Source: Rhizaria sp. SCN 62-66
Lineage: Eukaryota
Assembly (NCBI GenBank): GCA_001724265.1
Contig: MEDY01000061.1
Span: 62,001-100,381 of the forward strand
Reading direction: 5' to 3'
DNA length: 38,381 nt
In this document: positions 1-34,731 of the stretch, one piece after another
Layout of the letters: every line of letters begins with the position of its first letter
How positions within the stretch are numbered: position 1 is the first letter of the stretch
Position numbers and translations under genes: made by a program
The notes under the pieces: model-generated
The model's database searches: none
What the model saw: the letters and a program-made list of their open reading frames with translations, nothing else
What the model was told of the DNA's origin: nothing

Positions 1-1577
1 TCTCGTCCACGTCAGCAAAGTAGTCGCTTTGGGAGACATCGGGGTAGAGAAAAACCACAGGCCAGTGCAGACTGTTCTTGTCGTCGACGTACGGCTTCGC
101 GTCGTACTGGCCCACAGACTCCTTGAACTGGGCCTCGCCGATCGTCACGCCGCGCTTCTTGATCACCGCGTCCAGCTTGGCCTAAATACAATGCATGGGA
201 AAACAAGAGAATGAACATGAATGATGAGTTGTCATTCGAAACATTGACTAATAGATATATAGAATTTATGTCATCTAAAGCAAAAATATTATGGATAAAG
301 CATATTTGAAAATTAAACACTAATTTCATGATCATTCGTGCAAATATTTATCCGCAAGTATTGCGTTTAGTGGGATTTAGCGTACCTGCACGAGAGCCTT
401 GGCCTCCGCGTCGGCTTTCTTCTTGGCCAGACGGGCCCTCTCCGTGTCATCAGCACGCTTCCAGACCGGGACAATCTCCTTGGCAAGCGCCAGAAGCTGC
501 TTCTGCTCAGCGCTCATGCCGCCATGAGCAGCAGCAGCCGCAGCGGGCTTCGCGTCGGTCCCAGCAGCAGCAGCAGCAGCAGCAGCAGGAGCAGCGGCGG
601 CGGCGGTGGTGTCCTCAGGAGACTTCTCAGTCGTAGCCACCTCACCGTCTTTGGCAGCGGCGGCGCCGTTCTTAGCGGCGGCGACAGCCTGACTTTTGAG
701 CATCGCGAGTCCCTGACGGCACATGACGAACGCCTGGGGATACTTGTGGAGCTTGAACAACGCCAGCGACGCGCGGTAGTAGGCCTTGGGCAAGTGGGCG
801 TTCAGACCGAGGGCCTTGCCGCAGTCGCGGACGACGTAGCCGTAGTTCTCCAGGCCCAGGTGAGCCTGTAGATTAGCAAAGCGCAAGAACAAAGCAAGCA
901 GCGAGTTACACAAAAAGAGATGAGTTGAAGCCACAGATAAACACATCTTCAGTTCAAACAAATGATACCACAAAATAATTATTAAACGAAGACAAAAAAT
1001 GCAATATTGATATTTCAATTAAGAGTTAACTATCGAGGCGTACCTGAGCACGATTGCAGTAGAGTGTGGCCTTGAGCTCGGCCTCGGCAGTCTTCTCCTT
1101 GGGGCCAACTTCGAGACTCTGCGTGTAAAACGCAATGGCTTCTTCGAGCTTCGCCTTGCGCGTGACCAGGCGGCGCGCGCGGTCCTCGCGCGTCTCGTTG
1201 GGCCGCGGTTCGTTCATACGCAGAGCGAGCTTGTAGCTGCGGTTGCCAGACTCCTTGTACTGGTGCATGCGCTTCTCCACGGGAACACTGTCGACAATCG
1301 ACTTGAGGGCCTTGAAGGCGTCCGACTCCTCACCGGGCGCCGGCATGTGCGTCGCCGTGAGCGGCATCGACTGGATCAGCTTCTCGATCTCCTCCGGAGT
1401 CTCGGGCAGCGGCGCGTTGTTGTTGGCGTACCGCGCCACGGCCTCGAACAACGCGTCCGACTCGTCCGACTCAAAGTCAATAGTGCCGTCGGGCGTGTAC
1501 TGGTTAATCATGTCGTTCAGCGCCGCAATCGCGGAACCAGAGTCCGCGGGCGCAGCCGGGGAAGTGTTGTCACTCAT
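1..1577 (-). CDS. TTC4: TTC4/Cns1-like TPR co-chaperone (Hsp70/Hsp90); 3' end runs off the window
   Basis: Exons 1577-1044, 865-386 and 181-<1; both introns (1043-866, 385-182) are GTACGC...AG and keep frame. TPR repeats YKESGNRSY...AIAFYTQSL, LYCNRAQ|AHLGLENYG, KAYYRASLALFKL. The last exon reads LHWPVVFLYPDVSQSDY, typical of the Cns1/TTC4 C-terminal domain. Confidence 0.85.
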
Positions 1578-2388
1578 CAGGGGACGCTGGAGAGCGAAGT
1601 GAGAGGGTTGGAAAAGGTCTGCGGGAAGCGTTCGCAAATGCAAGAGTAGATTGGGTATATATGAGTGTTCCGTGCTATTAAAAAGTGAATGAATATTTCT
1701 CTATGGCGTGGTCTCTATAAATTCGTGCTAATGTTCACGTTGACGATCACTTCAAGGAAATCCTCTTGGTTTCGTAACAGCTTGCGGCCCGTAGCTTCCG
1801 GAACAAGCCGACAACCCGACTGAGGACAGTAACAATTGACAAAAGGAGAGTACAAGATCACATGTTTGTATTTTGGCGCTAAAACCGAGGAATCTAGATA
1901 AAGTACATTATTAACTATATAAATACCATGTTATTAGTATCACAAAGAACTTGAAGGACGAGGTATCCGACGAATTTTCAGTTTGGATGAGGTTGCGTTT
2001 TGAATGAGAGCCGTAGCGACCTTGCAGCGCAAACAGTAGAGGGACGCAGTCATGGACAACGCGTCTGCTTCACTGTCATCGTCAGCTATTCGCCGCACAC
2101 GCGCGCGTATAATAAGATTGAGGTCGCCTCAAGTGCCAGGCGGTTAAGCTTTAACGGACAGTGAACGCGACGTCGCCGTCACATTTCACTTCGAGCAATG
2201 TTGTGAACGCATATTGTTGTTGTTCTTACTCTTGTTGCCCACATGTGACTCGCATTGCTGATGAGACCCGCTATGCTGCTGAGTGAGGCTGTGACGATAG
2301 AGCGTGACAGTATTCAAGAATATGGCTGTTACTGAGCGTTGGCTTGATCCCCACAAGCATTTGATTAAAAGAAGATCGAAAGCTATCT

Positions 2389-3164
2389 TTACACGAGCTG
2401 CTGCGGCACAAACGCGCGCGACAACGGTAACAACCGAAAGACTTGATAGTCGCCATAGAGCAGTTTCCCCTCCCTGTCCCGGTGCAGAGCGTCGTAGCAC
2501 TGTTCGCAAAAATGCGCTGGCGACGCCGGAGCCAGCCGGTCGCCCACGGTCGCGACGACTGCGGTGTGCACGCTGCAGATGATGCATTTCAGCAGCGCGG
2601 CCTTTTTTCGGAACAGCACGAGCGGGTACGCGGCGCGGTTGTCGAGGTCGTCGGGAGCCCTCATGCGCATCTCGGTGAAGATGACGACATGCCGGCAGTC
2701 CCCTTGGTGCTGGTAGAGGTACTGCGCGCCCAGCCGCAGCCGCAGCGCCGATAACGGCGTGAGCTCCATGTTGGCCTGCTTGTAGGGGGCCAAACCGGGT
2801 CGCGCGTACCGCGAGTTCGCGCCGACCCAAGTCACGTAGGGGTCCGACAGCCGCGAGGCGCTGGGAGAACGCATGTCGTCGTAAAACGTGTTCTCGATGA
2901 AGAAAAACGCGCTGGGGTGCGGCAGCAAGTGGCGAGGCGCCCGGTCGCTAGCCACCGCGGCGAGGGAGAGCGATACTAAGGAGGCGGGGACGCTCGCGTA
3001 CGGCCTCGCGGTCGCGCTAGCCGCGGCATCGGCAGTGCTCGCAGTGCTCTTAGCGCCGGCCTTGCCCTTAGAACCACTACCACCACCACCACCAGCAGCG
3101 GCTGCTGTAGTCTTTGACTTCGCACTTGCCTTCTTTCCCTTTGCGTTCTTGGCGCTAGTAAACT

Positions 3165-3196
<32 letters not shown>

Positions 3197-3814
3197 TCGT
3201 CGCTGTTGTCGGTCATTGCGCTGCCCTTAGACTTAGAGCCCTTGCCCTTGTTCGACGGCTGCTTCGGTTTCGGCTTCGTGGTGAAACGGCCTGTGCCATC
3301 GTTCGTACGCGGCTGTTGCTGTTTCTGCTTTGCGCCACCTGCAGCGGCCTCGTTGCCTGACTCAGCATTAACACTCGAGTTACCGCCGCTACCGCCACTG
3401 CCACTGTTGTTGTTCTGAGCAGCAGTAATGACACTATGAGTGACAGCAGTCAAATGCGCGTTAAAACGCATTGCGCGCGGCAAAAAGCACACTAAACCGT
3501 CACCTGTCCCGTTAGCAGAGCTGTTGTTGTTGTTTGTGTAGGGGTTGTAACCGCAATGGATTTGCTGTTGTTGCCAGTTGACTGCGTCTGCGTCGTCAAA
3601 GTGGCAGTCCAAGCAGTCCCGGAGCGCCGTGAGGGGAAGATCGTCGGTCAGGAGTACATCTAGCACCCTTACCCGCGACTTGGGGCAGTAGGCCGTGGCC
3701 CTTAGAATGACTGTGTCGGCCGCTAAGGGGGCGCTGACGCACGTCTGGGCAGCGGCCGCGGCGGCCAAAGCCAGCTGTTGCTGCTCTTTGAGAATGGTCT
3801 CCTGCTGCTCCCGC

Positions 3815-3845
<31 letters not shown>

Positions 3846-4780
3846 CGTGAGCACTTGCACCAGCATTAGCACTAGAGCTAGCATTAGCACTAGAGCTAGA
3901 GCTAGAACGGACATTAGTGCTGGTATCGGAGCCAGTGTTGGCGTTAGCGCTGACGGCCGCGTTGCTGTTACTGTTGTTGTTAGCGGTGTGATGCGAGCTG
4001 AACGCAACGGGCTGAGTCGTAAGCACTTTCCCGACAGGCAGCGCCGCCACCGCCAATGACAGCCGCGCCAACGCCGACGGAGTCACGGCGTTCTGCGCGC
4101 CCTCAAACCGCTTGCTCTTGAGCGCCTCGCTGCGTTGGTGCTTCAGTGCGGCCAGTGGGGCGTCGAGGTCAGCCGCGGAAGGGATACGGGCGCCGAATTG
4201 CGGTAAGAGGGTGAAGCCTAAAGAGGCGGGGCGGTCTCGGGGACGCGAGCTCGAGGACGACGCTTGCAGGACCGTTAGCGCCTCGCTATAACAAGACGCA
4301 AACAAATTAAAAATGGTGAATATACATCGGAAATGAGCTTTGATATATGACATATAAGCGTTGTTTAACAGAAGTGAGATATCGCAGAGATCAATGATAT
4401 GAGACGGACCGATACTCTGAGATTTCTTCGCGAATGGCGCTCTCAATCACGTTGGCGGGGTTCTCTACCATGATGTCAGCGCAGGCTAAGTCGGCCGCGT
4501 CCGCCAGTGCCGACACGTCTGCGTTCATGGTGGAGCGGAACGCGGAGAATGCAGTGCGGAATTCGTCCGCTGATGAGAGGCGAGAGTAACCCGTGCGACG
4601 GTGGGCTGTCTCGACCCGGCGCTCGTTCATCAGTGCGAGCTCCCGGTAGTAAGCCTCGCGGGCGGCCGAGGCAGGCGCGGGGGGCTGGCCCGGTAGCGCG
4701 CCATCAGGATGCACATAAACCGGAAAGGTATCCGGCAGTTGAGATTGCGCCGAGGGTGACCCAGCGGTGGGCGCGCTCAT
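2389..4780 (-). CDS. SNAPC3: snRNA-activating protein complex subunit 3 (SNAP50), ~755 aa, with low-complexity insertions
   Basis: Exons 4780-4410 and 4285-2389; intron 4409-4286 (GTCCGT...ATAG) keeps frame. SNAP50 C-terminal motifs AFFFIENTFYDDMR, LGAQYLYQHQGDCRH, CxxC (CIIC), DRLAPASPAHFCEQCYDALH. Confidence 0.9.
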
Positions 4781-5703: not shown

Positions 5704-6822
5704 ATGAGCAACCGCTTCGCTTCTCTCGACGACGAGCCCTCTCTGCCTAAGGCTGCGCCCGTCGCTGCCAAGGCTGCCGCGCCCAAGGCCGCCGCCGCTG
5801 GCGCTGCGCCCAAGGCTGGTGCCAACGCTGGCAAGCCCCAGCACAAGAAGGACGCCCTTCACAAGGCCTCGATCGAGAAGAAGCGCCACGACGGCACTAA
5901 GGTGCCCCGTCGCGAGACTGGCTCGCACACCTCGGGCACTGGCAAGACCCGCTCTGCCACCAAGGTACGCTATTCAACGCTCTCCAGCTCCTGCACTCGC
6001 TGACATATTAAAAACTGTCGTTTTCAACTCGTTACACCCACATCTCAGCCCCAGCAGTCGCGGCGGCGGTGGCCTTGGCCAGAGTCTTGGGGTCGACCTC
6101 AACTCGGGTCACATCTCACTTCGTTCTTTACTTTCACTCACTTGTCTGTATTCCATTCCCTTGTCTGTCTCCTACCTGCCGTTCATGGTATAGGGCGGCG
6201 CTGGTCGCTTCAACTGGGGCAGCGCCAATGCTGACGTCGCCGACGCTACTGCCGCTCCTGCTGCTGCTGCCGAGGCCGCCGCTCCCGTCGAGGAGGTTGC
6301 CGCCGAGCCCGCTGTGCCTGAGCCCAAGGTCAAGGGTCTCGCTGACTTCCTGGCCGAGAAGGCTAGTGTGAAGGTCGCTGGTGACGTCAAGGTTGCCCGC
6401 CAGGTACGCAATTCAACGCTCTCTAGCTCCAGCTCATTCGCTCGTTGACCTATCCTAAACTGCCGGCTCATCTCGTCACCGTCCCCTCGTCTCACTCTTG
6501 TTCTCACTCTAACTCTTTCTCTCCTGTCTGCTGCGTTGTTTGCAATTCGACTCCTGTATTGTAGGTCGCCCCCATCACTGACCGCAAGTTCACCGAGGGC
6601 ACCAACTTCAACGCCGCCGCGGCCGCCAAGACCACCGCGCGCGTGACCGCCCCCGCCGTCGTCGCCGCCCCCTCTGTTGACAAGTCCAAGAAGGTCTTCA
6701 ACATCGACGAGTTCAACACCGTCACCGCCGCGCCCAAGAAGGCCGCCGCGCCCGCTGCCGAGGCCGAGAAGCCCCGTGGCGGCCCCAAGAAGTACTCCAA
6801 GAACGACTTCCCCTCCCTCTAA
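5704..6822 (+). CDS. SERBP1/HABP4/Stm1-like RNA- and ribosome-binding protein, 242 aa
   Basis: Exons 5704-5964, 6194-6403 and 6565-6822; both introns GTACGC...TAG. N-terminal NRFASLDDE, central SGTGK...K|GGAGRFNWG, LADFLAEK and C-terminal DFPSL* are hallmarks of the family. Strong codon bias suggests high expression. Confidence 0.85.
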
Positions 6823-7440: not shown

Positions 7441-10400
7441 TCACTCACTGCTACTCTCAGCCTCCTCACCTAGCACCGCCGCAACTTGCAGCTGCTGCTG
7501 CAGCAGACCGAGCGCCTTGCTCTCCCGCCGCTTCGCGCCGACCTTGTGCGCCGCCACCGCCAGCTGCCGCACATGCCCAGGGCCGGCGCCGCAGCAGCCC
7601 CCTAGCACGTCGACGCCCCAGTCGGTGCCCCAGCGCTCCGCCAGCGCGGCGAACGCCGACGCCGCCTCGCCAGCGGTCGCCGCAGTGCGCGTCTTGTGCA
7701 GCAAGGACGTCAGAGGCGCGGCGGCGCGGCGGGCCTCGGTGGAGGTCACCACGATCGTCTGTGTGTAGTCGTCATTACCGCTGCCTTCACTCGATACAGC
7801 TGTGCTTTGGGCAGTCGCAGAGTTCGCATTCATCGCACTCATGTTCGCTGTAGAGTTAGGGTTCGAAGGGTGAGTGTTATTGGCGCTGCTGGTGTTGTTG
7901 TTATTGTTGCGGGTGATATACGTATACGAGCAAATGGCATCTTCGTCGTATGGGATATGGATGTAAGTGCCCGCAGTGTTGTAAGTGTACGTCGTACTCG
8001 CGCTCGTTGCGTTGGTGCTGTAACTAACAGAGCTAGATTCTCTGTCGTTGATCTTCACGTGGTCACTGCCACTGCACTCGTGCTCAGAAACGCTTACATG
8101 GGTAAGTGGAGGGGGAATGTACGCGTCGGCAACGGCGCCCCCGGGGCCGAACGGAGAAAGGCCAAAGGGCACTTGCCACGACTGAGACAGCGACTGGGCC
8201 TGGGGTTGCGGAGACTGCGAATGCGACTGCAACTGAGACTGCGTGAACTTGGCACCGGGGTTCACATTGGCACTCGTCTGAGAACTCGTGCCCGCGTCGT
8301 CAGCCATAGCTTTCGTGACGAGCTCGTGAGCGTCCACAGCCCCGTTCACAGCTGCAGCGCCACTTGTGCCAACGCTGGCACTGTCACTTTCACGCTCACG
8401 AGCTGCACTCGCACTGATGTTGTTGCTGTTGTTGTTGTCGTTGCTCTTGCTAGTAGAGTTGTTGTTGCTCTTATTGGCACTGCTCGCCACACGGCCATTG
8501 CTGTTGTTATTGTTGTTGTTGTTGTTGTTAGTGTCAACGTCGAGCCAGTGCGGGTGTGAGACAAGTGGCGATGCGGGCGACGTCGACTTATGGGGGCGGT
8601 AAATGCCCGACGAACCCTTAGATCCGTCCGAGTGCCCCTTAGACCCGTCAGCGTGGCGAGATGAACTTTTGCCCCTGACACCGTTGTTACTCTCGCTTCT
8701 AGCGCTTGAGTTGGCGTTGTCATTAGCACGTACAGAAGAGCTAGCATTCTTGCTGTTGTTCTTCGCATTATTCGAGTCCAGGTGCGAGTCTTGATTACTG
8801 GACTCGGAAGACTTTGCACTCGCAGTGTTGTTGATGCTACAGACAGTGTTCGAAGCAGGCTGTCCCTCAGCAACAGGGTTCGAACCTAGAGTGAGGATGA
8901 TAAGACAGTTTGTAAAGAGACATGTGTGAGCCAGGAGAAAAAAAGTATGATCTGGTAAACAATTTCAATTAAATAAATCAAATATAGCAATTTCAGATTC
9001 TCGCCTTGAAACTGCCACTGGCTCCCGGTCAAATGTAAGGTCGCATTGTCATCCAAAGTGAAAGAATTGCCTGCAACCGCAGTAAGCTTCAAAACACCCG
9101 TTGCGGGTCTAAAATGGGCACCATTAAGCTTTGAGCTGAATGAATTTACATGTTTAATGTCATTAAACGCACCTAACTTCGACGGTAACTGTGTCTGCGC
9201 CTGTGCCTGTGGTCGTGACTGTAACCGCTGCGACTGCGGCGTCTGCGAGTGCGCGTGCGCGTGTGCATGTGGGTGTGCATGCGCGTGTGCATGTGAGTAC
9301 GACGGCGCGTGCGACAGCAGCGGCAGCTTCGCGTACGCGCCGATGGGCCGCTTCGTAATCTTCCGCAGCAGCGGCAGCGCAGCTGTGACGGCCGTCGGTG
9401 AAGAGCAGTTGAACAAGTACCCATCGACGAACCGCGGCAGCGAATTGAGCAGACGGTCAACGGCCTGGGCCAGTGTTTCGCACGAGTACAGGCGGGGCAC
9501 GCCGTAGTCGGTGTCGTTGAGGCGGAACGACACCCAGACCGGGATGGGGACCGCGGTGGTACCTGTGCGGGTACTCGTGCCGCCCACGGTCACTTGCTGT
9601 GGGTTTGCGCTGGCAGTCGCACTGGCAGTAACATCGACACCAGTGTTAGCGTCACTGCTGCTCTTGTTCAAGGTTTTATTATCGCTGGCTTTGGCCTTGT
9701 TGACGACGCTGTTGACGGTCATGGCCGCGAGCGCCGTGAGCTCGGCCTGCTGAATGCCGTGACTCGACTCGCACAGGAACGCGTCGCACCAGGGCGCCAA
9801 AGACACGGCGACGAGCTCCAGCCACAGACGCTGCACCGTCTCTTCGCTGACGCTGGCGTCCGAGGACGCGTCTAAAGGGGACTTGGGGGGATACCTAGTA
9901 GACGCTGCCGGGGGCGTCGCTGTCAGAGTGTCGTGTCTGAGGAGGTCGGCAGGGTGGGTCTCGGCGTAAGAATCAGTCGCGTTCGCGATTGTAGAACTGA
10001 TCGCACTATCGCAGCTCGCAGAATCACCGCTAGTGCTTGAGTTGTGGCTAGGAGTGCACAGAAGCGTGTGTTCTGCTAAGAGCTGCTGGTAGAAGAAAAC
10101 AAGAACTGCATCACTCTCACTCAGCCCCACATTGACACGCTCACGTGCATTCGCACTTGCACTCGTGCCACTACTGTCAGTGTCATGGCTACCACTGCTG
10201 TTAGTCGCGCTGGCAAGCACGGCGCTGTTGTAGTTGGTCACCGCAGTCGCCAAAGCCGCGGCAGCCGTCGCTGGAAGCGGGGCGACGTAGCCGACGACGT
10301 AGACGCCGTGGTTCTTGAGTATCATGTGCGCGTACCGGGCCAGCTCGGGCCGCTTTTCGCTCAGCTCGAGCAACGCCTTGCGCAGCAAGTTGTCCTCGCG

Positions 10401-12940: not shown

Positions 12941-15714
12941 TCAGTTATCGCGGAGACGGATGAACATCCGCTTGAGCATGCGCGCCTCGTAGGCCACCGT
13001 GCGCTGCGCCTTGCTCACGGTGCCGGCGAGCGCTCTCTCAGCCCGGCCGGCGAGCGCGGCCTCCGCGCCTACGGCGCTCGCGTTGTAGCTGCTGCTAGAG
13101 CCCGCGGAGCCAGAGCCCGAGGCGGCGCCCTCGGCGTCGTCGGAGCCGCCCAGTGCAGCGCAGATGGCGCCGCCGGCGGCCTCGCACGCGGTGAGGAAGT
13201 TGATGACGTCAGCAAAGAACGAGTCCTTCATGACGAGCATCTGCTTTGCCACGGTCTCTGCCAGCGCCAGGAAGCACCGCTTCGAGTGGAACCACGTCTC
13301 TGCGCTGAGTTTCTTGGATTGGGGCTCGAGCGCCTTCATCACGCGCTCAATGCCGAACTCGAAGTTGCCCTTGGAGCAGTAGAGCGTGCCGATGACGATG
13401 TTGACGATGCACAGATGGTACGACTGTGCGCCGTTGTTGAGCGCAGCATGGCGCTCCTCGGCGCGGTCGATCTGCCGCATGAGCTCCGCCGCCACGTCGT
13501 TCTGCGAGGTCATGATGTACGCCACGCACAGGTTCGCCAGCACGATCGCTGTGACGTTGAGGATGTCGGTCTCGCCGCCCTCCAAGTGGCGCCGCACGAA
13601 GGGCTCGTAGTAGCGGATGGCGTCGTGGTACTTGTCGCTCTGCATGAAGAACACGTGCGCCACGTTCAGCTTCCACGTCTCGTGGTCAGAGCAGAACTCG
13701 GCGGACTGGCGGAACACGCGCTCAGCCATGCTGTAGTTGCCGCGGTCCCAGTAGATGCGCGCCTATAGTAGAGTTAGTTATAAAAGAGAGATATAGAATA
13801 AAAAGTTGTGAGATTTTTGTTTGAAGTGTGATATATCTCTCATTTTCACATTTTTAAAATGAAAACAAATTGTTATTTGAATAATTGGCATAATAACCCT
13901 CAATATAGTCGTTGAATTCTGAATGAAACAGATCTTCTAATTGAAATCTTTGTTTTAGCGATGACGTACCTGTCCCATGAGGACGGGGATGTACTGGTCG
14001 AGCGCGGCGTCATACGCCGCCACCGCGGCCTTGATGAGCTCATCCGACCGGGCGAGACGGGCATCCTGGATGGCCTTTGTGCGTTTGCGCAGGACGTCGA
14101 CGTGGCGCGTGGCGAGCTGGTCCAGCGAGCGGTACGCCTCAGCCTGCGCCTGTTCACTGCCATCGCCTTCGACGAGCGCGCTGAGGTACTCGAACATGTC
14201 CTGGCTCAACACGCCGCCCGCGCTCAGCCCGCCGCCGTCGGCCGCGGCGGAGTCGGAGGCGTAGTCGGCGAGCACGTCGGCCGCCAGGTCCGTCACGCGG
14301 TGCTTGATGTAGAGCAAGACCAGGTTCGCCAGCGTCTCCGGCGGCCGCGGCGGGTTGCGCAACAGGTGCTGGAGCTTGCGGAACCCGCCTGAGGGATCGG
14401 TGGCCATGTTCGCCAGCGCGGTGTTGTGCAGTGTAACGTGGTCGAGCTCCTCCTCAAGCCGGGGCGGCATCTCACGCAGCGCCTCGCGCGCCGCCTCGGT
14501 GTTGTTTAGCGTCAGCTCCACGGCGGCCTTGAGGTTGAAGGCCTCCAGCAAACAGGTCTCGCGCAGCGCCTGCGAGTTGCCGACGGAGCGCACGTCGCCG
14601 TCCTCGAGCGCGCTGCCCACAGAGAGCTCGGGGTGTTCGCGTACACCGCGCTCGATGATGTCGCCGCAACCCTTGAGCGCCAGCGCCCACGAGCCCTGCT
14701 TGTAGTGGCACAGCGCGATGTTGTACAGCAGGTCAGGCTGCTGGCCGAGGAGACCCGCGGCCGTGGTGAAGCCCTGGCGCGCGGCGTCGTAGTTGCCCTC
14801 CTTGTACTGCACGGCAGATGTCGCCACGAGGGTCTCGGCCGTGTCGGAGGGGAGCAGGGAGATAAAGGTCTTTGTGCCCGCGATGTCGTCTTGTGCGTAA
14901 CGAATCGCAGCTATATATATGTATATAACGCGTCGTAATTGAAAATAAAATAGAAATAATTGTAAGATAAATGAGTGGGGTATCTTATATCTTAATTTGA
15001 TAGCGAAATGATTTTGTTAAGTCGGTCAAATGTTCAGTTTGAGAAGTTTCACTGTGAAGTGCATCTCTATTTTAGTCGACGCCTCTCTTTGATGTGGCGA
15101 TGTGGCTGAAGCGTACCTTGAAGCTGGATCATGCGCTGAGCGTACTGCGGGTCGGTAACGGTACTCGCGACCTTGTGTGCCTCGTCGTGCATGCCGGCGT
15201 TGAAGAGGGACTGAGCCCAGTGCACCGAGTACTCGGAGACGTGGGGGCACAGGGTCACGAGCTGCTCGTAGTGCTCGGACGCGGACACGAAATCCTAGAA
15301 TTCGCAGCAATTCACAACGACAACAAAGCAAAAGCAAGTGCAACCAGTGCCAAGAAAAGTAAGACAAGTGAGAATGAAAGAACGATACAAAGTTTGTTTA
15401 ACGGACGAAGATCAAGGTCTGAGACTGCGAAACGCAAGAATGACACAAAATAGTCACCAAAGAGTACCATTGAAACACGATTAGCTTTTTAATGTGCTAT
15501 ATAGCCGTACCTGGATGTAATAGTAGCAGTAGGCGAGGAGCGAGAGCGCGGCGCGCGACCCCGGGTGCGCCTGCAGCTGGTGGTGCAGAGCACGGATGGC
15601 GTCTCCATAGCGTTGGTCGGCGATAAGTCCGTAAACGTACTGCGTCGTGGAGGACGAAGAGGCCGAGGCCGAGGCGGAGGGGCGCATCATCGTGCGGTTC
15701 ATCATCGTGGCCAT
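12941..15714 (-). CDS. TTC30: Intraflagellar transport protein IFT70 (TTC30/fleer/DYF-1), ~714 aa
   Basis: Exons 15714-15511, 15294-15117, 14910-13970 and 13762-12941; all donors GTACG, frame consistent. Motifs SRAALSLLAYCYY, IIERGVREHPEL, EAFNLKAA, MPPRLEEELDHVTLHN, WKLNVAHVFFMQ, YHLCIVNIVIGTLYCSKGNFEFGI. Confidence 0.95.
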
Positions 15715-19800: not shown

Positions 19801-22800
19801 CCTCTTCGTCGGCCTTGTTGCTGTTCTTGCCCTTGCGCTGCTGGCGCGGCGCCGCGTCCTGGCCGAAAAACACCGCCGACACGGCCGAGGAGTACAGCTG
19901 GTAGGACCGGAACATCAGACACGGCTGCATGTACAGGCGTGACACCAGGAGCTCGGCCGGGTTAAGTAGGTCACGCTCGAACGAGACCTTCTTGTTGAGG
20001 AGTTTCTCCTCGAGGAAGCCCTCCATGTTGTCGTCGACGTCACCGCGCGACTCGACGTCCACGTCCAGCTCCCAGTCGTCGGGACCTACAAATGATCATG
20101 TTCAAGCAAGTGCGCAAACAATGCGAACGAAGAGAAGTGAAAAATGGAACATGTAAGAAAAGCACTATCAGTGAGGATATAAACACATATGTAGCTAAAA
20201 TAGTAAACAACTATAAAAACACTAAGTCTCACAGAGAAATATATCAATTATATATACTCTGGCACTTTTGGCGATTTAGCGGTTTACGTACCGGGGAAGC
20301 AGCAGCAGACGAGCGCGCCGGTGTCGGGCCGATCCATGGGCACGTTAAGCTTGTGCCCATCTGCGTGGTACACGACCTTGGACTGCGCCTGCGTCCCAGC
20401 CGCCGTGTCTGACGTCTTGCGGCGCTCGCTCTCACCACCTTCACGCATCTTGATCTGGCGCCGCTCTTCGTTCGTCTCGCGGATGCGTTGCTGCGAGGTG
20501 ATCGAGTCGACGGCGTGCTGCGACTGGTCGACGCGCCGCGTGATTGCGGTGTGGATCAGCTCGATCTGCTCCAGAGCGGCCTTGAGGTGCTCGTGCTTGT
20601 GGATCTTGAAGTTGCGCGTGAAGGCAGCGCGCAGCAGACGGCTCTTCTTGGCCAAGTCAGCGGCCTCAGTACCTAAAGAAAAAACCGCCAAAAACATTAA
20701 GAGAAGATAAATAAAGGCGTTAGCGATTGACAGAAATCACAATATATAAGTATATAGAACGTGTTATCAATGCATCGAGTAGTGCCTGCGTGGCAGTCTT
20801 GCTATATAGTGTTTAAACAGTGCGTTTTCGCGAAACAACAATGGACTTGGTGAAGACATGATGAATATCACTTTACGACGAAGAGTTATTTGTTTAAGTG
20901 CTGTGGTTCAACGTACCTTCGACGTCGGTCTGTTGCTGCTTCTCCTCCTGCTGCTGCTTGACGCGGCGGCGCAGCACGCGCGCCATCTGACGCTCAGCCT
21001 TGTGGAAGATCGGAATGACCTTTGGCTCAGCCTAAAGAGCGCAAAGAGGGAAGAATCAAAATAAAAGAAAAGCTTTGTGTGAGTCTAAAGTACACTTAAA
21101 CGACACTTTTGAAAACAAAGCTAACACAACATATGTAACAGGGCACAATTCTCTTAAATAATACATTGTAGAACAAACTCATTTCATCCTAGCGAGATAT
21201 CGACGCTTTTGTTAACGTCAACATACCTCTGACTTATTCGCGCCGCTGCGGCCATCGCCGGTGCCGAGGCCGAGACGGCCGGAGTCACCATAACCCCACA
21301 CGTACGCCTCGCCCTCGTCGGTGCACAGCGCGTTGTGGTCGGCCATCGCGGCGATCTGGCGGATGCGGAGCGTGCGGAACGACTTGAGCAGCTCGGGCTG
21401 AACCACGGTCAGCGTCTCCTGTTTCTGCTCCTCGGCGGCCAAGGCGGCGGCGGACGAGTTGGCGGCGTCCTGCTCGGCGCCCGCGGACCGCTGCTGCTGC
21501 TCCAGCGCCTTCTCGGCCATGTGTTTGGCGACGTTGCCGACGCCGAGCTTGCCGTATTGCGTTTCGCCCCATCCAAAAAGCACGGGTGCGCGGCCGTGGT
21601 TGGCCTTTTCATTGTACCGGCAGAGCAAAAAGTGGTGGGAGCGGGCCGTGATCACCTTGAGGACCTTAAAATCGTTAATGGGCAGGTCGGAGGCCAGCTC
21701 GCGACGCAGGTCTTCGCCGTTGTTGAGCTTTTCGATGTACGTCGGCAGCGGGTTCGGGTCTTGGTTCAGGCCTAAGGAAAAAGTAAGCAAGAAACAAAAA
21801 TGAATATTATATATCGCGCATGTGTGAGTAAATGGAGCCTTACATCTAAACATTAATTTTTAATATCGAAGACATTGTAAACGTACCAGGCAGGACACCC
21901 CAGGTGTAGATGACTTCGATATCACTCGAGTTGGATACCGCAATGGTGGCCTTGTCACTTGCGGCGATCAAGTGCACCTTAGGCAGCATCTTGGTCGTCG
22001 CCGCGCCGCCGTTGCCCTTGCCCGAGGAGCCCGTATTGACGCCCTTGTCCTTGTTCTCACGGTTGAACTTCACGTCGTCCATGTGCAAGTCCCAGTCGTC
22101 AACGAGCACGGGTGTCGCGTACGTCAGCTGCGCGTTAGCGTACCGACCCAGCTGCCCATGCTTGCCCATGCCGCACGTGTACACGCGCGCGTCAATCACC
22201 TTCTTGCCGCGCACTTCGAACCGCTCGACGAGGATCGCTGTGTGGGTCGTGCCCAGCGCCAGTGAAACGCGCTCGCGCTGGACGGAGGCGCCCGTGCGCG
22301 GGATCGCGCTCGGCAGGCGCAGCGGCTTGGGGAAAGAGAAAAAGTTCGGGTAGCACGGGAACACGCCTGGGAATAGAGTTGGATCAATAACAAAAAGCGG
22401 TCGTTATATTTAATTAAAAAAAGGGGGGGGGGGTTGTTAGAGTTAGTATGAAATAGCGTGAAAGGTGTGAAAATATTAATTATTTTGTGGGGTTTTGATT
22501 AGCAGAGAACGTACCGGGCTCGTCTTCAGTGCCGACGCCGAGCTGTCCGTACTGGTGGTCGCCCCACACGTAGACGTCGTCGCGGCCGAGGCCGCCGTGG
22601 GTGTCGGTAGTGGCGACCGCGGCGACGTGCGACCAGCCGGCCACCAGGGAGGTGATGTAAGTACCTGCGGGGGGTGTAGGTGCCAGAGCAAGGGGGGAAG
22701 CATGCGATATGTTAAAGCGTGAGCCTCAGAGAATGTTACATGCACGATGACACGTTCAAACAACATCTAGCGTTAACTGCGGTCTGAACCACTTGATACA

Positions 22801-25121
22801 AGTGCAATATAACGCATTATGAAATGAACTTTCTTTGTTTTAAAGATAAAAATATTAATATACGTACCCTGGAGGGCCTTGACGACCTCCGGCTTGAAGC
22901 GAGAGACGGTATCGCCGAGACCCAGCTGACCGCGCTCGTTGCCACCCCTGTAGCAGTAAAACGACGAAATTGCGAGTATATACACGACGATGAGAGCATA
23001 TCAAAACAAAACTGAAATATCTCGTACAATATATAAAATGACATGCATAATAATTGAACTCATATTAAGACCATGGAGTTGCTGAAGCAATATATTACAA
23101 TTGCGTACCAAGCGAAGATGGTGCCGTGGTCAGAGAGGCACATCGAGAAGTTGCTACCGCACACGATGGCAGTGATGATGGTCGACGACGGCGTGGGCAG
23201 CGGCACCGGAATGGGCCGCGCCGACTGCGGCATCTTACCGACACCCATCTGGCCCTGTGCGTTGCTACCCCAGGCCAGGATCACATTGCGGTTACTCTCG
23301 ATGGAGAGTGCGAGCGTGTGGCGCTCACCGCAGGCCACCATGCGCGCTTTATAGTCGTCCTGCTTCACTTCCAGGTCCTTGATCTCGCTCGCCATCGAGC
23401 AGATGCGCTTGTCGTCGAAGAAGTCAAGCCGCGTCGGCACAGGGGCGCTGCCGGAGTCGGTGTGGATGCCGAGGCGCATGCCGCTCGTGCAACCCCACGC
23501 GTAGACCTGGGATAATTAATAACGAAAATTGAAGGCATATATGTGAGTCATTTAAAATAAAATAGACACACGTGTAAATAACTGAGTTATGTGTGATAAA
23601 ATCATTTTTAGCTGCATGTCATAGCATCTTGTGTTAAATAAATGTTTGGGCACTTAAAGTAAATCATTTCGCCTTCGCAAAGCTATTTTGGCTGTTATTG
23701 CTACTTGACGTACACGGTTGTCGAGCGAGATGGCGACGGTGTGGTGCTGCCCCGCGACGGCGCGAATCGCCCTCTGGGGCTTCTTGAATAGCTCCACAGG
23801 CGTCGGCGACAGCCGGTTGGCGGTGTCTCCGTGTCCGAGCTTGCCGTACTTGCCGCCGCCCCAGGTGTAGAGCGAGTAGTCGTCGCTGTCGGGCAGGACG
23901 AGTGCGAGCGAGTGGAAGCTGTTGCAGCTGACGTTAAGCACGCGGATGTTCTTCAAGTCGCCCTCGACGACCGTGGGCGTCTGGACGTCGATCTCCGTGC
24001 CAAGCCCGAGGCGGCCGTAGGCGCCGGAGCCCCAGGCGAAGACGGTGCCCTCTGCGGTCAGCGCCAGGTTGTGGCTGTCACCGGAGGCGATCTGCACGAT
24101 CTTCTGATCTTCGGAGAGCACGAGAGACTTGATCAGCGTGGGCGACTTGCAGTCGGCCTCGTTGCCGTGGCCGAGACGGCCGTTCTTGCCCTTGCCCCAG
24201 GACCACACCGCGCCGTCCGCGCACAGTGCAAGCGAGTGCTCCGTGCCGCAAGAGACCATGATGATCTTGGACGTCGCGCGGACCTAAAAAAGAGAGGGAG
24301 GGGGGCGCACATTGAGAACAAAAGTTCAAGAGTTAGGAATGAGCACAAAGATAAACTCGTTTCGACACAGAACGACGCAGGCCATAAGATTATTGAAGAA
24401 TACATCTAACAGTACAAGGGAATATTACTGAACTGATATCATTTAAGTCAAATCACACTTTGTTTGTGCGTACCTGTGTGACGGGGTCAAAGAGACGGAA
24501 CCCAATGGGCTCGGGGTTGGAGATGGAAGTATAGCCGCGTCCCCAAGCATAGATGGTGTTGCCATCCTCGGTAATCGCGAGAGACGAGTCGGCGCCGCAG
24601 GTGACGTAGCCGATGCGGTCCACGTTGGGGAACTTGATCTGGCCGTGAACACGGTGACTGTAGAGTAGAATAGCATAACATAAGCGACCCAATGTGAGTT
24701 CATATAGAAGCGCGAGATAAAGTTGTGTTGATATGAAACAGGTGAATTTAGATGTTTTTGCGTGACATTTCATTTCATTTGAACAATAAAATACTAACTA
24801 AACATTTTTGTGCTCAAGAGTTGTTACGTACTGTCCGAGGCGTCCGTCGTCCTGGCAGCCAGTCGAGTACACCATGCCGTCTGCGAGGATGATCGTGTGG
24901 CCAGAACCAACTGCAACCTGCACGGACTCGGGCCGCTTGATCGGGGGCAGATTGAAGTTGATCGGCGCTGCCTGGTACTCTGAGAAGGTGCCATGGCCGA
25001 GCTCGCCCTGCTTACCGAGGCCGAAACCGTAGACCTGGCCGTCATCAGAGACGAGAACTGTATGCACCCAGCCGCACGCGACGCGCGTCGAGAGGAACTT
25101 GCGGAACAGGTCGCGGTTCAT
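16832..25121 (-). CDS. RCC1-repeat protein with an IQGAP-like (RasGAP-related) C-terminal half, ~2040 aa, 13 exons
   Basis: Exons 25121-24832, 24657-24474, 24283-23714, 23506-23109, 22947-22868, 22664-22515, 22366-21887, 21771-21227, 21031-20917, 20672-20292, 20085-19469, 19305-18985 and 18823-16832 total 6123 nt with an open frame across all 12 GT-AG introns. The first ~900 aa carry many RCC1 repeats (VACGxxHT...VYxWGxxxxGxLG). The C-terminal assignment is less certain (see findings). Confidence 0.85.
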
Positions 25122-28682: not shown

Positions 28683-28756
<74 letters not shown>

Positions 28757-31700
28757 GAGCAGTAAGAGCAGCATTCGCGACGACAGCGGCAACTCTAGTC
28801 GGCTGCAACCAAGTGACTGCGAACAGCAGCAAGCTCATGCCGCCAGCTCTAGCTCTAGATCTAGATCTAGATCTAACTCTTGCTTAAATGTAGATCCGCT
28901 GTTTTATGAGCCGCTGCTGCCGTCAACAGAGTCTGTGGCGAAGTACAGGACCGGCTACTCTTTGCCCATGCACTCGCTGTTTCTTGTTGTGCTGGCGCGT
29001 CAGTGGCTCAACTTCACCCGCAACGGCAGCATCATCGTGCCCCGCCTTGTGCAGGCTGTGGTTATGGGACTGCTGTACGGCTCGATGTTCTGGCAAATCC
29101 CGTCGGACGCATTCTTCCTGCGTACGTCAATTTATATTTTATGTAGCACGTAACGACAGCGAACTCTCTTGAATAGTTTATGTATTTTATATGTATCGCA
29201 TATTCCAACAAAAATATGTCGAGATGTCATGTTATCTTTCTAATTTTATTTCGTCTACTCTCACTTTCCTCTTCGTTCTCGTGCAACCGTGGCTGTTTAG
29301 GCATCGCTGTTCTGCTCATGGCTCAATGTCAAGTCGGTTTCGGCTCCATGGTTGAGCTCACTGCCAGCATTGAGAATAACCACATCATGCTCAAGCAGCT
29401 CAATGCAAGCTGGTACCCGGTGCCACTGTTCGTTCTCGCTGCAGTCGCGGTCGGCATCCCCATTTTCCTCGCAGAAGCTGCGATTTTAACGTTATTCATC
29501 TACTTCATGTCGGGATTTGTGCTTGAAGTCGGGCGGTTCTTTGTGTTTTTCGCAGTGATGGTGCTGTGTTCGCTGATTATGTCGGTTTGGTTCCGTATGA
29601 TTGCAGCCATGAGTCGCGACGAACCAACTGCGCAGGTACGTACTATGATTTAACGACAATCCTCGTCAATCTTGAACTCGACATGCCATTTTATCGAGAT
29701 ATCTCTGTTACTCATTACTATAATGCTGCTGTTTAAGTCCTTTGTCGATACCATCATGTTATCACTTACGCGTTTCGACTTTCCTTTGTTATATGACTCC
29801 TCTCATAGGCGATTTCGAGTCCGACAACGTGCGTGTTCATCATTTTCGGCGGTTTCTTCGTCACCCCGCCCAACATCCCTGTCTGGCTGCGCTGGTTTTC
29901 TTATCTTTCCCCGTACTCGTGGTCGGTACGCGCGCTCGCCAACAACGAGTTTTTGTCCCCCCGTTACTCCGCAATCTCGGACACCGGTGAGACGCTGGGT
30001 GTAATGTATCTGCGCGCAGTCGACATGCACGTGGGCCAAGAGTGGATTGGTTACGGTGTGCTATTCTTGCTCGGGTTCACGTTGTTTTGCATCGTGGGCA
30101 ACTCGGTCCTGCTGCAGCGGCAGACGGCCTATGAGGCGCATCGGGGCACGGCACGCGCGGTTACTCGTGCTGCTCACGGTCACGCGCAAGCAGGCAAGCC
30201 AGCGTTCGTGTTTGTCTCTGATTTATCTCCGTATGTCACCTCGACGCTAACTGCAAGCGCGAACAGCGACGCTCATGCTAAGGCTAGCAGCGGCGTTGGT
30301 GGCAACGCGAAGGCTCAAGCTAGCAGCGGCGTCGATGTGAGTGCTGATGCGAGTGCTGACGTCGCTGCTGGTCATGATGAGACTTGCGGCGACAAGGATG
30401 GCAATGCTTCAAGAAGACTTGATGACAACAGTGACATTCTGAAGACCTTGCGCGAAGTTATCCCTTTCACCCCGCAATGGCTGACCTTCACGGACCTCTA
30501 CTACACTGTTCCAGTCACAACGACGCAACCAAAGCCACAGCTAGAGTCACAGCAACAGCAACAGTCCCAGTCACCTCAGGTTCAACCCCAGTCAAAGCCC
30601 CAGTCAAGCTCGCAGTCAAATTCGCAGCCACCACAGGCAAGCACACAATCGTCTTCAATCGCCATCCCGATCAACGAGCGCGTATCCGCCCAAAGCGCTC
30701 TCTTAAATCAGGACTTGGGCGGTGTCGACAGCAAGGTTTTGCTGTGCGGTGTGAGTGGATACGCCGAGCCGGGTACACTGACAGCGCTGATGGGAGCCTC
30801 TGGCGCGGGCAAAACAACTCTGCTTGACGTGTTGGCGGGCAGGAAAACGGTCGGCACTGTCGCTGGCGAGATCAAACTCAATGGCCGCCTCCTCACCCTC
30901 TACGGCAACAGCAACGATAACAGAGACAACACAAACATGAACATGAACGTGACTAACGCCAGCTCTATCTCTATTGCGAACAAAAACGACGCTGCTGCTG
31001 ATAACTCGAGCACTAGTATGACTTCGAGCAGTAGTAGCCACGTCGCTGCTCACGCGAACATGACTGCGAGCAAGAGTGATTTAGCGGTTGTCACTGGCTA
31101 CGTAGAGCAAAACGAGACCTTACTCGCGACAGACAGCGTCCGTGAAACGTTACTCTTTGCCGCCAAGCTACGTCTCTTGCCCTCCATGCAGAGCAGCAGC
31201 AGCAACAACAGCAGCAGTCATCTAAGTACCCCCCTAGACGACGTCATCGACCGTGTCGTCGACGAAGTGCTCGACGTGCTCGAACTGACCGCAATCCAGC
31301 ACAAACTCGTCGGCTCCCCCGCGACCACGGGTACCAGCGGTTCTCTCGCCATCCAGGGCCTGTCTCCCTCGCAGCTGAAGCGTGTCAACATCGGGCTCGA
31401 ACTCGTGACGAACCCTGCCATTCTGTTCCTCGACGAGCCCACCACGGGCCTCGACTCCCGCGCCGCGCAGACCGTCATGCGCGTCGTGCGCCGTATTGCG
31501 CGCTCCGGCCGGTCCGTTATCTGCACCATCCATCAGCCGTCGGCCGAGCTGTTCTATCTCTTTGACCGGCTCGTGCTGTTGGCGCCCGGAGGAAAGCAAG
31601 TCTACTTTGGCAATCTGGGTCAGAGGTCTAAGGGGCTGGTGGGGTACTTAGAGCGCGTTCCTGGTGTTGAGAAAGTTAGGCCGCGGCATAACCCTGCGAC

Positions 31701-32967: not shown

Positions 32968-33914
32968 ACTGCTGGCTGTTGGTAAGTGTCACTTTCCACT
33001 AAATCAGGTTCATTACTCCAGGCGATGCGCATTTGTCGCTGGCACAGCATCTATGCCAATCGTACGGTATTATTGGTGATATATAGTAGTATATAGTGAG
33101 TGTTTTAGTGTTTCAAAATCAATAAGTGCTGATTAGTTTACTTTCCTCTTCTTATGCTTCTTTAGTTACGCATCGTTCTTCTTGGTGTGTACTGGAGATT
33201 TATTCGCCTTAATTGCTCCTTTAGTACTTCATATTGTTATGTGTGTTCAATGAACTATTTATTTACTGGGCCGTATTTATTTGTATTTCCAATTTTGTTT
33301 TTGTTTGTGCTTATGTGTGCTTTATGATACGGTAGTGTCGCTCTAACAAGTGAATGAGTTGCTTCAGTGACAACAGTTATACATTAACGAAGAAAGCATA
33401 CACAAGCATTAAACTACAAGTCTATTATAGCATGTGTGTTCACCTTTGTTATGGTGATGTATTCGTTTCATATCATAGTGATTAGAATTGGTTTTGTGCC
33501 ACTTGTGATTCAACTTGACTGACGAAGTAACTTATTTCTTTCAAAATTTTGGCAGGGACCTGCACTTGCATTTCAAACAAAATGGTATAATGATTGGCGG
33601 CAGCAAATTTAAACTGACATTTGTTCTGGTTTGCCGGTGTTTAGTTTGTATTCGCCAAGATTTGCTCTTGATAAGCACACGAACATGGGTTTTAGGCCGA
33701 TGCGAAGTATGTTTGTGGTGACTTCGGGTCAGGCCAAGAGGCGATCACTTGCACCAACTTTCGCCCTAGCTACCGATACGCAACGATCGTGCTTTTGTCC
33801 GAAACTGTTTTTCTGATGCTTATAGTGTGTATAGTATTCCTATTTTCAATAAAAGTATCTCAGTCTTCTCTTATCCTCCTGTATTTCTTCCATCTGCGTT
33901 CACAGCTTTGCGCG

Positions 33915-34731
33915 ATGGCGGACCGATACGCCACCACTGCTCTCAAGGCGACCATCTCGAACATCCTTGACGCGGAAGACGTCCGCGTCACGCGTGAGTC
34001 CTGCATGTCGACTCTTATGCACCTTGCAACGCAGCGTACGTCCTGTTCTCTCCCGCCATCCAACGCCTTCAAGAGGGCGCCGTCAGATCTCTTGTCTCTC
34101 TCGCCACTTGCTTTCCTGACTCATGGCTGTCGCCAAACCATCTTTCTAAAACGCTAAACTCGAACCAACGATGTAACAACATATGTTCTATCTATTTTAC
34201 TTGCTTTTAGACATCACGGAGCTCGCGCTGCGCGCCAAGGAGTCAACGGAGCTCTCTGGCCGCTCCCACATCAACTCGGCCGACATCGTTACCGCGATCC
34301 AAGATATGGGCCAGGACCCGGCGGATCTGTGCGAATTCGCCACGGCGAACCGCGCGCTGAACCCCGTGCCCACGGGGAGGTTTCCCGTGTACCCGGACGT
34401 GCTCCTCATCTCTGGCGACAGCAATAACAGCGTCAACACCACCGCTAACATTGCTGCCGTTGGTGCTGGAGCTATCTATCCGTCTCATATCCCCTCGTTT
34501 CTTCCCCCGCTACCCCCGGCGCACACGCTGACGCTCCCCACTAACACCGCCGCCAACAACGCGATCGCTAACGCTTCTTCTTCTGCTGTTGCTGTTGCTG
34601 GTGGTGGCGAGGCGACGATTGAGGATGCGAATATCCTTGAGCGCCGCACACTGGAGGCTGCGGCCACAGACGCGGCGCTGCTGCGGCTGTTCAGGGCTGC
34701 GGCGCAGGCCGAAGACGTGGGCAAAGAGTGA
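33915..34731 (+). CDS. TAF8: TFIID subunit 8 (histone-fold plus TAF8 C-terminal motif), 213 aa
   Basis: Exons 33915-34035 and 34211-34731; intron 34036-34210 (GTACGT...TAG). Histone-fold segment ELALRAKESTELSGRS...DIVTAIQDMG followed by the TAF8-type motif PSHIPSFLPPLPPAHT. Confidence 0.8.

What the first reader, a model, noticed from the sequence alone, without database searches (positions are those of the whole stretch)
182..34210. Near-invariant GTACG (+4C) 5' splice sites suggest a rewired spliceosome
Seen: of 24 frame-validated introns in 8 genes, 21 begin GTACG. The others begin GTCCGT (4409), GTGCGT (9172) and GTATGT (21226). So +4 is C in 23/24, +5 is G in 24/24, and none uses GTAAG or GTGAG. 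Meanwhile the textbook donor GTAAGT occurs on the sense strand inside the FAD synthase ORF at 35339, 35918 and 35936, apparently unused. Known: +4 is usually A, or U in budding yeast. It is read by the U1 5' end and faces the U6 ACAGAGA-box adenosine that METTL16 methylates. Inference: this lineage may carry a compensatory G in U1 or U6, or may have lost or altered METTL16/SNRNP27K-type factors.
Basis: partly seen in the sequence, partly recalled or inferred. Interest (0 to 1): 0.75.

Follow-up and report, generated by a model that had tools for sequence, protein, structure and literature searches.

The report
GTACG splice donors, unmatched snRNAs
In this wastewater protist nearly nine in ten predicted introns start GTACG-like, with C instead of the usual A at the fourth base, yet the small RNAs that read this signal keep their standard sequence, a pattern already seen in a few other intron-poor microbes and still unexplained.

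Summary
All 24 window introns restore open frames; 23 have +4C; 6 junctions appear in RNA contigs. In 820 kb from 21 contigs, 119 of 139 frame-obligatory predicted introns have +4C even under a fixed human-like donor model. GTAAG donors are rare but used (4 of 139). The proposed cause mostly fails: the single U1 (ACUUACC) and single U6 (UACAGAGA) found are canonical opposite +4, SNRNP27K keeps Met141, and METTL16 is present. Factors do look altered: METTL16 has no room for its KA-1 domain, and U1C changes conserved L13/H15. C-at-+4 donors with a standard U1 are known in Thecamonas and Mamiellales, and this scan noted +4C on other DNA. So this is a new, probably rhizarian, case of a known unexplained pattern. 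Two extras: U1 model position 1 is G, which could pair with +4C in a register shifted four bases (speculative, about 15%); and TAG reads as a rare sense codon, probably glutamine, while TAA and TGA stop. I found no report of UAG=Gln in Rhizaria.

The parts
866..1043 (-). intron, TPR-type gene A, donor GTACGC
   Evidence: open frame after joining
182..385 (-). intron, gene A, donor GTACGC
4286..4409 (-). intron, SNAPC3 gene, donor GTCCGT
5965..6193 (+). intron, gene C (STM1/SERBP1-like, name recalled; no Pfam hit), donor GTACGC
6404..6564 (+). intron, gene C, donor GTACGC; first ~75 nt 73% alike to the previous intron
8886..9172 (-). intron, homocysteine S-methyltransferase-domain gene, donor GTGCGT (frame only)
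15295..15510 (-). intron, IFT70/TTC30, donor GTACGG
   Evidence: frame and homologue alignment
14911..15116 (-). intron, IFT70, donor GTACGC
13763..13969 (-). intron, IFT70, donor GTACGT
24658..24831 (-). intron, RCC1-repeat gene, donor GTACGT with A at -1
   Evidence: RNA joint in X1 and X3
24284..24473 (-). intron, RCC1-repeat gene, GTACGC
23507..23713 (-). intron, RCC1-repeat gene, GTACGT with T at -1
   Evidence: RNA joint in X1, X2
22948..23108 (-). intron, RCC1-repeat gene, GTACGC
   Evidence: RNA joint in X1, X2
22665..22867 (-). intron, RCC1-repeat gene, GTACGT
22367..22514 (-). intron, RCC1-repeat gene, GTACGT
21772..21886 (-). intron, RCC1-repeat gene, GTACGT
21032..21226 (-). intron, RCC1-repeat gene, GTATGT (the only +4 non-C donor in the window)
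   Evidence: RNA joint in X1, X2
20673..20916 (-). intron, RCC1-repeat gene, GTACGT
   Evidence: RNA joint in X1, X2
20086..20291 (-). intron, RCC1-repeat gene, GTACGT
19306..19468 (-). intron, RCC1-repeat gene, GTACGT with C at -1
18824..18984 (-). intron, RCC1-repeat gene, GTACGC
   Evidence: RNA joint in X1, X2, X3
29122..29300 (+). intron, ABCG/PDR-type transporter, GTACGT with C at -1
29636..29808 (+). intron, ABC transporter, GTACGT
34036..34210 (+). intron, gene H (TAF8-like, name recalled; no Pfam hit for exon 2), GTACGT with C at -1
35133..37727 (-). intronless open frame with PAPS_reduct domain holding exonic GTAAGT at 35339, 35918, 35936 (-1 = G, T, T)

Best explanation
An intron-poor, probably rhizarian protist with an ordinary major spliceosome has converged on a strong donor (G)|GTACG(T/C). 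U1 and U6 pair with it in the normal register through -2/-1, +1 to +3 and +5/+6, and +4C sits as a mismatch against U1 U5 and U6 A43. SHOWN: the genome-wide bias, canonical snRNA cores, the -1G/+6U trade-off, a KA-1-less METTL16 reading frame, and a divergent U1C. INFERRED: without KA-1, U6 is poorly m6A-methylated, so A at +4 loses its advantage; changed proteins around the U1/5'SS and U6/5'SS helices (U1C is the visible candidate) then favour C over U. Why C beats U is the weakest step.
For: +4C in 108, 119 and 122 of 139 strict introns under flat, fixed human-like and learned donor models, and the majority on most of 21 contigs. About 1.06 predicted introns per gene and 4.96 bits at +3..+6, close to the 4.8 bits of O. 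lucimarinus. U1/U6 canonical and single. Among +5G donors, 33 of 36 without -1G have +6U against 67 of 120 with it. In S. pombe a KA-1-less METTL16 has about 2% efficiency on U6 and fails to rescue splicing (PMC12371086, passages). +4 order C >> U > A fits loss of the A advantage. Same pattern with a standard U1 in Thecamonas and Mamiellales; a diverged U1C in Entamoeba (bioRxiv 10.1101/2022.06.08.495308, passages).
Against: Unmethylated U6 A should favour U, not C (PMC10581693, discussion), yet U is only 11 of 163. SNRNP27K Met141 and the METTL16 NPPF motif are kept. Some other eukaryotic METTL16 orthologues also lack KA-1. U1C contacts backbone, not bases, and single Ala changes in yeast had no effect on growth (PMC4383343, passages). 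+4C shows no trade-off with -1G (p=1.0, only 16 non-C donors). No methylation, crosslink or genetic data. KA-1 absence was judged from sequence and length, not from a fold.
Confidence: 0.5

Rival explanations
1. Hidden compensation at the U1 5' end. U1 model position 1 is G (GUACUUACC). Its first four bases GUAC pair Watson-Crick with donor +1 to +4 GUAC in a register shifted by four bases; U6 then fixes the cut site in the usual way.
For: G at position 1 in the only U1 found. In a published U1 set (file cut when stored) the G start occurs 9 times against 2037 for the A start (PMC2396436 supplement). Computed duplex energy favours the shifted register in 100 of 139 donors, but in only 11 of 139 if position 1 is set to A, and in 34 of 39 donors lacking -1G. 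Shifted and bulged registers exist in human donors (search listing and abstracts only).
Against: The U1 start is unknown; transcription could begin at the A of ACUUACC and leave the G out. Energies ignore pseudouridine and proteins. The exon-side extension it predicts is absent (-3 U 17 of 139, -4 G 22 of 139). O. tauri, of a +4C lineage, has an ordinary A start. I saw no report of a four-base shift.
Confidence: 0.15
2. U6 stays m6A-methylated. m6A disfavours U at +4, and C fills the same non-Watson-Crick (trans Hoogsteen/sugar-edge) slot that A fills, so +4C is the form that a pyrimidine shift takes in lineages that keep METTL16.
For: METTL16 NPPF motif, U6 UACAGAGAA target and SNRNP27K Met141 are kept; +4U is rare (11 of 163); m6A destabilises A:U at +4. 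Similar shape of A-A and A-C pairs of this family is recalled, not from a call.
Against: m6A should favour A, which is rarer still (5 of 163); no KA-1 domain; METTL16 status of the other +4C lineages was not checked.
Confidence: 0.15
3. A compensatory U1 or U6 exists but was not seen: a copy missing from this 714-contig assembly, or RNA editing (for example A-to-I at the U6 ACAGA adenosine, which would pair with C).
For: The assembly breaks at repeats (ubiquitin genes end at contig ends); a compensated U1 ACGUAC exists in Mastigamoeba; the order C > U > A > G resembles G/I pairing (inference).
Against: The canonical U1 and U6 lie on contigs with GTACG introns and in-frame TAG like the rest of the genome. 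Covariance, pattern and BLAST searches gave one copy each. No RNA reads of the snRNAs were examined.
Confidence: 0.1
4. No selection on +4: the motif is a legacy of an introner (mobile intron) wave or of high GC.
For: Narrow intron lengths (interquartile 160-205 nt); genome GC 55-69%.
Against: Only 6 weak pairwise hits among 163 introns. Intron bodies hold 21.7% C and 13.5% G, and +4G is 2 of 163. Phase-0 excess 82:30:27. G|GTACG is under-represented in coding sequence (O/E 0.67).
Confidence: 0.07
5. Artefact of picking donors that match the motif.
For: Outside the window the introns are predictions; the coding, intron and acceptor models were seeded from the window.
Against: RNA joints, homologue alignments, and motif-blind or human-biased donor models give the same answer.
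Confidence: 0.02

Closest known systems
Thecamonas trahens and Mamiellales (Micromonas GYGCGY; Ostreococcus lucimarinus GTGCGTG) +4C donors with standard U1 (bioRxiv 10.1101/2022.06.08.495308; PMC2483917)
   Same: Intron-poor, strong donor, C at +4, standard U1 pairing region
   Different: Here +3 is A (144 of 163), there is no strong branch-point motif (CTRAC in 22 of 163), the lineage is probably Rhizaria, and U1 position 1 is G (A in O. tauri)
Mastigamoeba balamuthi GUGCGC donors with compensated U1 ACGUAC; Entamoeba GUUUGU with U1 AACAAAC and diverged U1C (same preprint)
   Same: Atypical +4; a diverged U1C as in Entamoeba
   Different: No change in the U1 pairing core here
Saccharomycotina +4A to +4U switches linked to loss of METTL16 / SNRNP27K Met141 (PMC10581693)
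   Same: +4 switch without U1/U6 compensation
   Different: Switch is to C, and both genes and Met141 are kept; only KA-1 appears lost
Trichomonas vaginalis type A introns GTAYGT (PMC13548475)
   Same: +4 pyrimidine, GTACGT occurs
   Different: U dominates there (10 of 11 new type A introns), with an invariant branch-acceptor motif
UAG-only reassignments: Iotanema spirale and some ciliates (Gln), rhizarian exLh (Leu) (PMC5304391, PMC11687900); side finding
   Same: UAG read as sense while UAA stays a stop
   Different: Gln in a probable rhizarian; very rare use (44 of 214,132 codons); no CUA tRNA found

Membership tests
+4C donor lineages without U1 compensation (Thecamonas/Mamiellales type) | C is the majority base at +4 genome-wide | tested here: met
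   108-122 of 139 predicted introns in an 820-kb sample (2.3% of the genome), plus 23 of 24 in the window
+4C donor lineages without U1 compensation (Thecamonas/Mamiellales type) | Low intron density with strong donor signal | tested here: met
   203 introns in 192 predicted genes; 4.96 bits at +3..+6
+4C donor lineages without U1 compensation (Thecamonas/Mamiellales type) | Standard U1 ACUUAC pairing region | tested here: met
+4C donor lineages without U1 compensation (Thecamonas/Mamiellales type) | Common canonical branch-point motif (an accompanying trait in those species) | tested here: not met
   CTRAC in 22 of 163 introns; no enriched branch 5-mer
Compensated-snRNA lineages (Mastigamoeba, Entamoeba, C. 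merolae U6) | U1 or U6 base facing +4 changed to pair with the donor | tested here: not met
   U1 ACUUACC and U6 UACAGAGA in the single gene copies; RNA-level editing not testable
METTL16/SNRNP27K-loss lineages (Saccharomycotina +4U) | METTL16 absent | tested here: not met
   PF05971 gene on C75 with NPPF motif; open if TAG is sense
METTL16/SNRNP27K-loss lineages (Saccharomycotina +4U) | SNRNP27K absent or Met141 changed | tested here: not met
   QYMNR aligned to human SNRNP27K
METTL16/SNRNP27K-loss lineages (Saccharomycotina +4U) | U6 central adenosine unmethylated | not testable with these tools
   needs modification mapping; KA-1 absence only suggests it
Introner elements | Families of sequence-similar introns | tested here: not met
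   6 weak pairwise hits among 163 introns
Major (U2-type) spliceosomal introns | GT-AG ends; U1, U6, U1C and an FBP21/WBP4-like factor present | tested here: met
Major (U2-type) spliceosomal introns | U2, U4, U5 snRNAs and LUC7 of standard form | not tested
Rhizaria (placement of the organism) | Marker proteins group with rhizarians | tested here: met
   RNR groups with Paulinella and Mataza (SH-aLRT 85); IFT70 with Lapot gusevi (FastTree 0.944); moderate support, two genes
Rhizaria (placement of the organism) | Insertion between polyubiquitin monomers (recalled marker) | tested here: inconclusive
   no tandem polyubiquitin found

The most novel reading that the evidence does not exclude
The A-to-G change at U1 position 1 is the compensatory change: U1 reads GUAC donors in a register shifted by four bases, a kind of snRNA co-evolution that searches limited to the ACUUAC core would miss, in an organism that has also lost the U6-binding KA-1 domain of METTL16 and reassigned UAG to glutamine.
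Probability: 0.15. Interest if true: 0.85.

Novelty: new member of a known kind. Interest (0 to 1): 0.52.

Why it matters
Why intron-poor lineages shift +4 without changing U1 is an open question (Roy and Bowser; Irimia and Roy). The METTL16/SNRNP27K model explains only A-to-U switches. This genome keeps both genes and Met141 yet has about 3% A at +4, so it is a counter-case that points to three testable levers: the missing KA-1 domain, a divergent U1C, and a G at the U1 5' end. Separately, UAG read as Gln with UAA as stop would be another independent origin of a rare nuclear code, and it changes gene calling: under the standard code METTL16 looks like a pseudogene.

Tried and rejected
A crude GC-drop screen ranked GTACG second of 64 pentamers and was too noisy to use. 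METTL16 as a pseudogene, from its two in-frame TAGs, was dropped once TAG proved to be sense genome-wide. A homologue search with METTL16 exon 1 found nothing at E<=1e-5, so the residue at its TAGs was not checked against relatives. The metagenome scan found no intermediate relative with introns: of 40 loci, two were near-identical to the window (100% and 99.96%) and the rest distant. So lineage breadth is unknown and no shared ancient intron position was shown. No CUA-anticodon tRNA was found: none in 30 tRNA loci plus 400 kb of loci, in 21 more genes, or by pattern; the tRNA search scored only 63 of 506 candidates. The U1C profile search gave only 7 hits, one unrelated. The coding-sequence avoidance test is mixed: GGTAAG O/E 0.50 and GGTACG 0.67, but GTAAGT is enriched 2.4-fold; codon-pair bias is not controlled, so it is not used either way. 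Run X3 also holds unspliced pieces, so its contig across 35918/35936 does not show those sites are unused. U1 folding z-score was uninformative. No shared U1/U6 promoter element beyond short AT-rich words. No structure prediction was run for KA-1. Literature searches found no report of +4C donors or UAG=Gln in Rhizaria; the library lacks most subscription papers. The preprint's figures and supplements (U1 sequences of Thecamonas and Micromonas) could not be seen and bear on the shifted-register idea.
Full report
1. Observation. I rebuilt the eight genes by script. All 24 introns give uninterrupted frames, with 21 GTACG donors plus GTCCGT (4409), GTGCGT (9172) and GTATGT (21226); +4 is C in 23 of 24 and +5 is G in 24 of 24. 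Against 21.7% C in intron bodies this is p about 1e-14. Contigs of four public runs (wastewater and activated-sludge metagenomes, two studies, X1 = X2 one sample) were laid on 16801-36800. Six of the 15 modelled introns there appear among the 15 joints listed, with exactly the modelled lengths; 19 further joints were not shown, and the DNA-like run X4 shows none of the six. The three IFT70 junctions align flush with homologues. The three GTAAGT sites in the last ORF are real, but two have T at -1, and window exons hold 26 unused GTACG against 13 GTAAG; they show nothing.

2. Genome-wide test. The window is part of a 34.9-Mb, 714-contig assembly. I fetched 820 kb from 21 contigs outside the window (2.3% of the genome) and wrote a gene finder. 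Its coding, intron and acceptor models were seeded from the window; its donor model was flat beyond GT, fixed human-like, or learned. I kept only introns that the frame requires, with flanking exons of 75 nt or more, length 90-400 nt and a GC drop: 139 of 197-229 predicted introns per run. +4 is C in 108, 119 and 122 of 139 under the three models. With the human-like model GTACG is 102, GTATG 10, GTGCG 7, GTCCG 5, GTAAG 4 and GTGAG 1. The flat model misplaces some donors next to a GTACG. +4C is the majority on 20 of 21 contigs and half on C30 (2 of 4); C75 is also lower, 16 of 25. The genome is intron-poor (203 introns in 192 predicted genes) with 4.96 bits at +3..+6. Introns are not a repeat family (6 weak hits among 163), have no strong branch motif and are phase-0 biased. 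These introns are predictions, not RNA-confirmed.

3. The machinery. U6 is canonical, UACAGAGAA; U1 has the canonical ACUUACC core, scoring 47.9 bits, below Rfam's 69.5 cut-off but full-length at E 6e-10. One copy of each was found by pattern and BLAST, on contigs that share the GTACG donors and in-frame TAG of the rest. SNRNP27K aligns to the human protein through QYMNR, so Met141 is kept. An FBP21/WBP4-like gene is present. METTL16 is present with NPPF and the other methyltransferase segments but ends about 44 residues after the last strand, and I saw no typical donor that could lead to a further exon. In S. pombe the KA-1 domain gives about 50-fold efficiency on U6 and is needed to rescue splicing (PMC12371086, passages); some other eukaryotic orthologues lack it too (PMC10581693 section 5). 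U1C reads FTTNDS where human has LTHDS at 13-17 and the six nearest U1C-like hits have [YF]L[TS]HDS. His15 contacts U1 snRNA and Tyr12 the splice-site backbone, but U1C touches no bases and single Ala changes were silent in yeast (PMC4383343, passages). That L13 changes weaken the U1/donor helix in yeast is recalled, not from a call. LUC7, U2, U4 and U5 were not searched.

4. TAG. METTL16 has two in-frame TAGs, so I tested the code. With TAG allowed as a stop, 16 of 170 complete gene models ended in TAG; the frame then ran on for 300 or more codons in 9 of 16, against at most 105 after TAA (83 genes) and 158 after TGA (71 genes). With TAG as sense it occurs 44 times in 214,132 codons. Neighbouring residues fit Gln best by 20 log units, and in a ubiquitin-domain gene TAG stands where paralogues have Gln. 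No CUA tRNA was found. METTL16 is therefore probably an intact frame.

5. Organism. Ribonucleotide reductase groups with Paulinella and Mataza (SH-aLRT 85; tree of 56 of 120 hits) and IFT70 with Lapot gusevi (FastTree 0.944; all 120 hits): probably Rhizaria, not an apusomonad or green alga. The SSU rRNA is very divergent with long insertions; a sainouroid is a recalled guess, untested.

6. Mechanism. Donors lacking -1G almost always have +6U (33 of 36 against 67 of 120, p=5e-5), the usual trade-off between exon-side and U6-side pairing; +4C shows no such trade-off, with little power. The simplest reading is normal-register pairing with a +4 mismatch, and a preference set by proteins and the modification state of U6 (0.5). 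Its weak step is C over U. One snRNA change could read C directly: U1 model position 1 is G, against 9 G starts to 2037 A starts in a published set (PMC2396436 supplement file 1, cut when stored). GUAC at the U1 end pairs with donor GUAC in a register shifted by four; computed energies favour it in 100 of 139 donors, and in 11 of 139 if that base is A. The U1 start is unknown, the exon-side extension is not enriched, and O. tauri has A there, so I give it 0.15. Retained m6A with C in the non-Watson-Crick slot (0.15), an unseen or edited snRNA (0.1), introner or GC legacy (0.07) and artefact (0.02) follow.

7. Known cases. Roy and Bowser (bioRxiv 10.1101/2022.06.08.495308, passages) report +4C with a standard U1 in Thecamonas trahens and Mamiellales, a compensated U1 in Mastigamoeba, and a diverged U1C in Entamoeba. 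Irimia and Roy (PMC2483917, passages) report GTGCGTG in O. lucimarinus. Parker et al. (PMC10581693, abstract, results part 2, section 5, discussion part 1) found almost only A/U switches, without U1/U6 change. Also seen as passages: PMC13548475, PMC5304391, PMC11687900, PMC9803359, PMC11732430; PMC6972860 was irrelevant. Two earlier scan notes describe +4C donors in other genomes; I had reached this reading and the preprint before seeing them.

8. Verdict. A real, genome-wide +4C donor in a new lineage; a new member of a known, unexplained kind. The proposed compensatory G opposite +4 and factor loss are refuted at gene level, and altered factors are supported. Interest 0.52: it is a counter-case to the METTL16 rule with specific testable levers, and it exposed a probable UAG=Gln nuclear code.

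Noticed in passing
genome-wide; L007 (METTL16, two sites), L166 codon 63: TAG is a rare sense codon, most likely glutamine, while TAA and TGA are stops: 44 of 214,132 codons; frames continue after TAG; Gln context; Gln in ubiquitin paralogues. No CUA tRNA found; eRF1 not examined. I found no report of UAG=Gln in Rhizaria.
   Followed up: partly
L002:1501-1651: U1 begins with G at model position 1, lacks the G after ACUUACCU, and has an odd U1A loop and a degenerate Sm site (AAUAGUUGG).
   Followed up: partly
L121:1501-5945 (G000:C706): Highly divergent SSU rRNA gene of about 4.4 kb with several long insertions, group I-like by recall; locus GC 41%; not shown to belong to the same organism.
   Followed up: no
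L173, L167-L170, L174: Ubiquitin is unusually divergent and occurs as single units or ribosomal-protein fusions, several at contig ends; no tandem polyubiquitin seen.
   Followed up: partly
window 5965-6193 and 6404-6564: Two neighbouring introns of gene C are 73% alike over about 75 nt from the donor, suggesting local intron duplication or conversion; a similar pair links C75 and C90 (86% over 43 nt).
   Followed up: no
G000:C75:1-60000 (L025-L030): This contig has fewer +4C donors (16 of 25) than the rest (106 of 114) and holds many of the GTATG and GTAAG donors.
   Followed up: no
window 1-38381 versus sampled contigs: The window is intron-rich (24 introns in 9 genes) and GC-poor (55%) against about one intron per gene and up to 69% GC elsewhere; many proteins carry long low-complexity insertions and several intronless or nearly intronless ORFs exceed 6,000 codons.
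   Followed up: no
L122, L123: The IFT70 region occurs at 100% and 99.96% identity in two other metagenome contigs.
   Followed up: no
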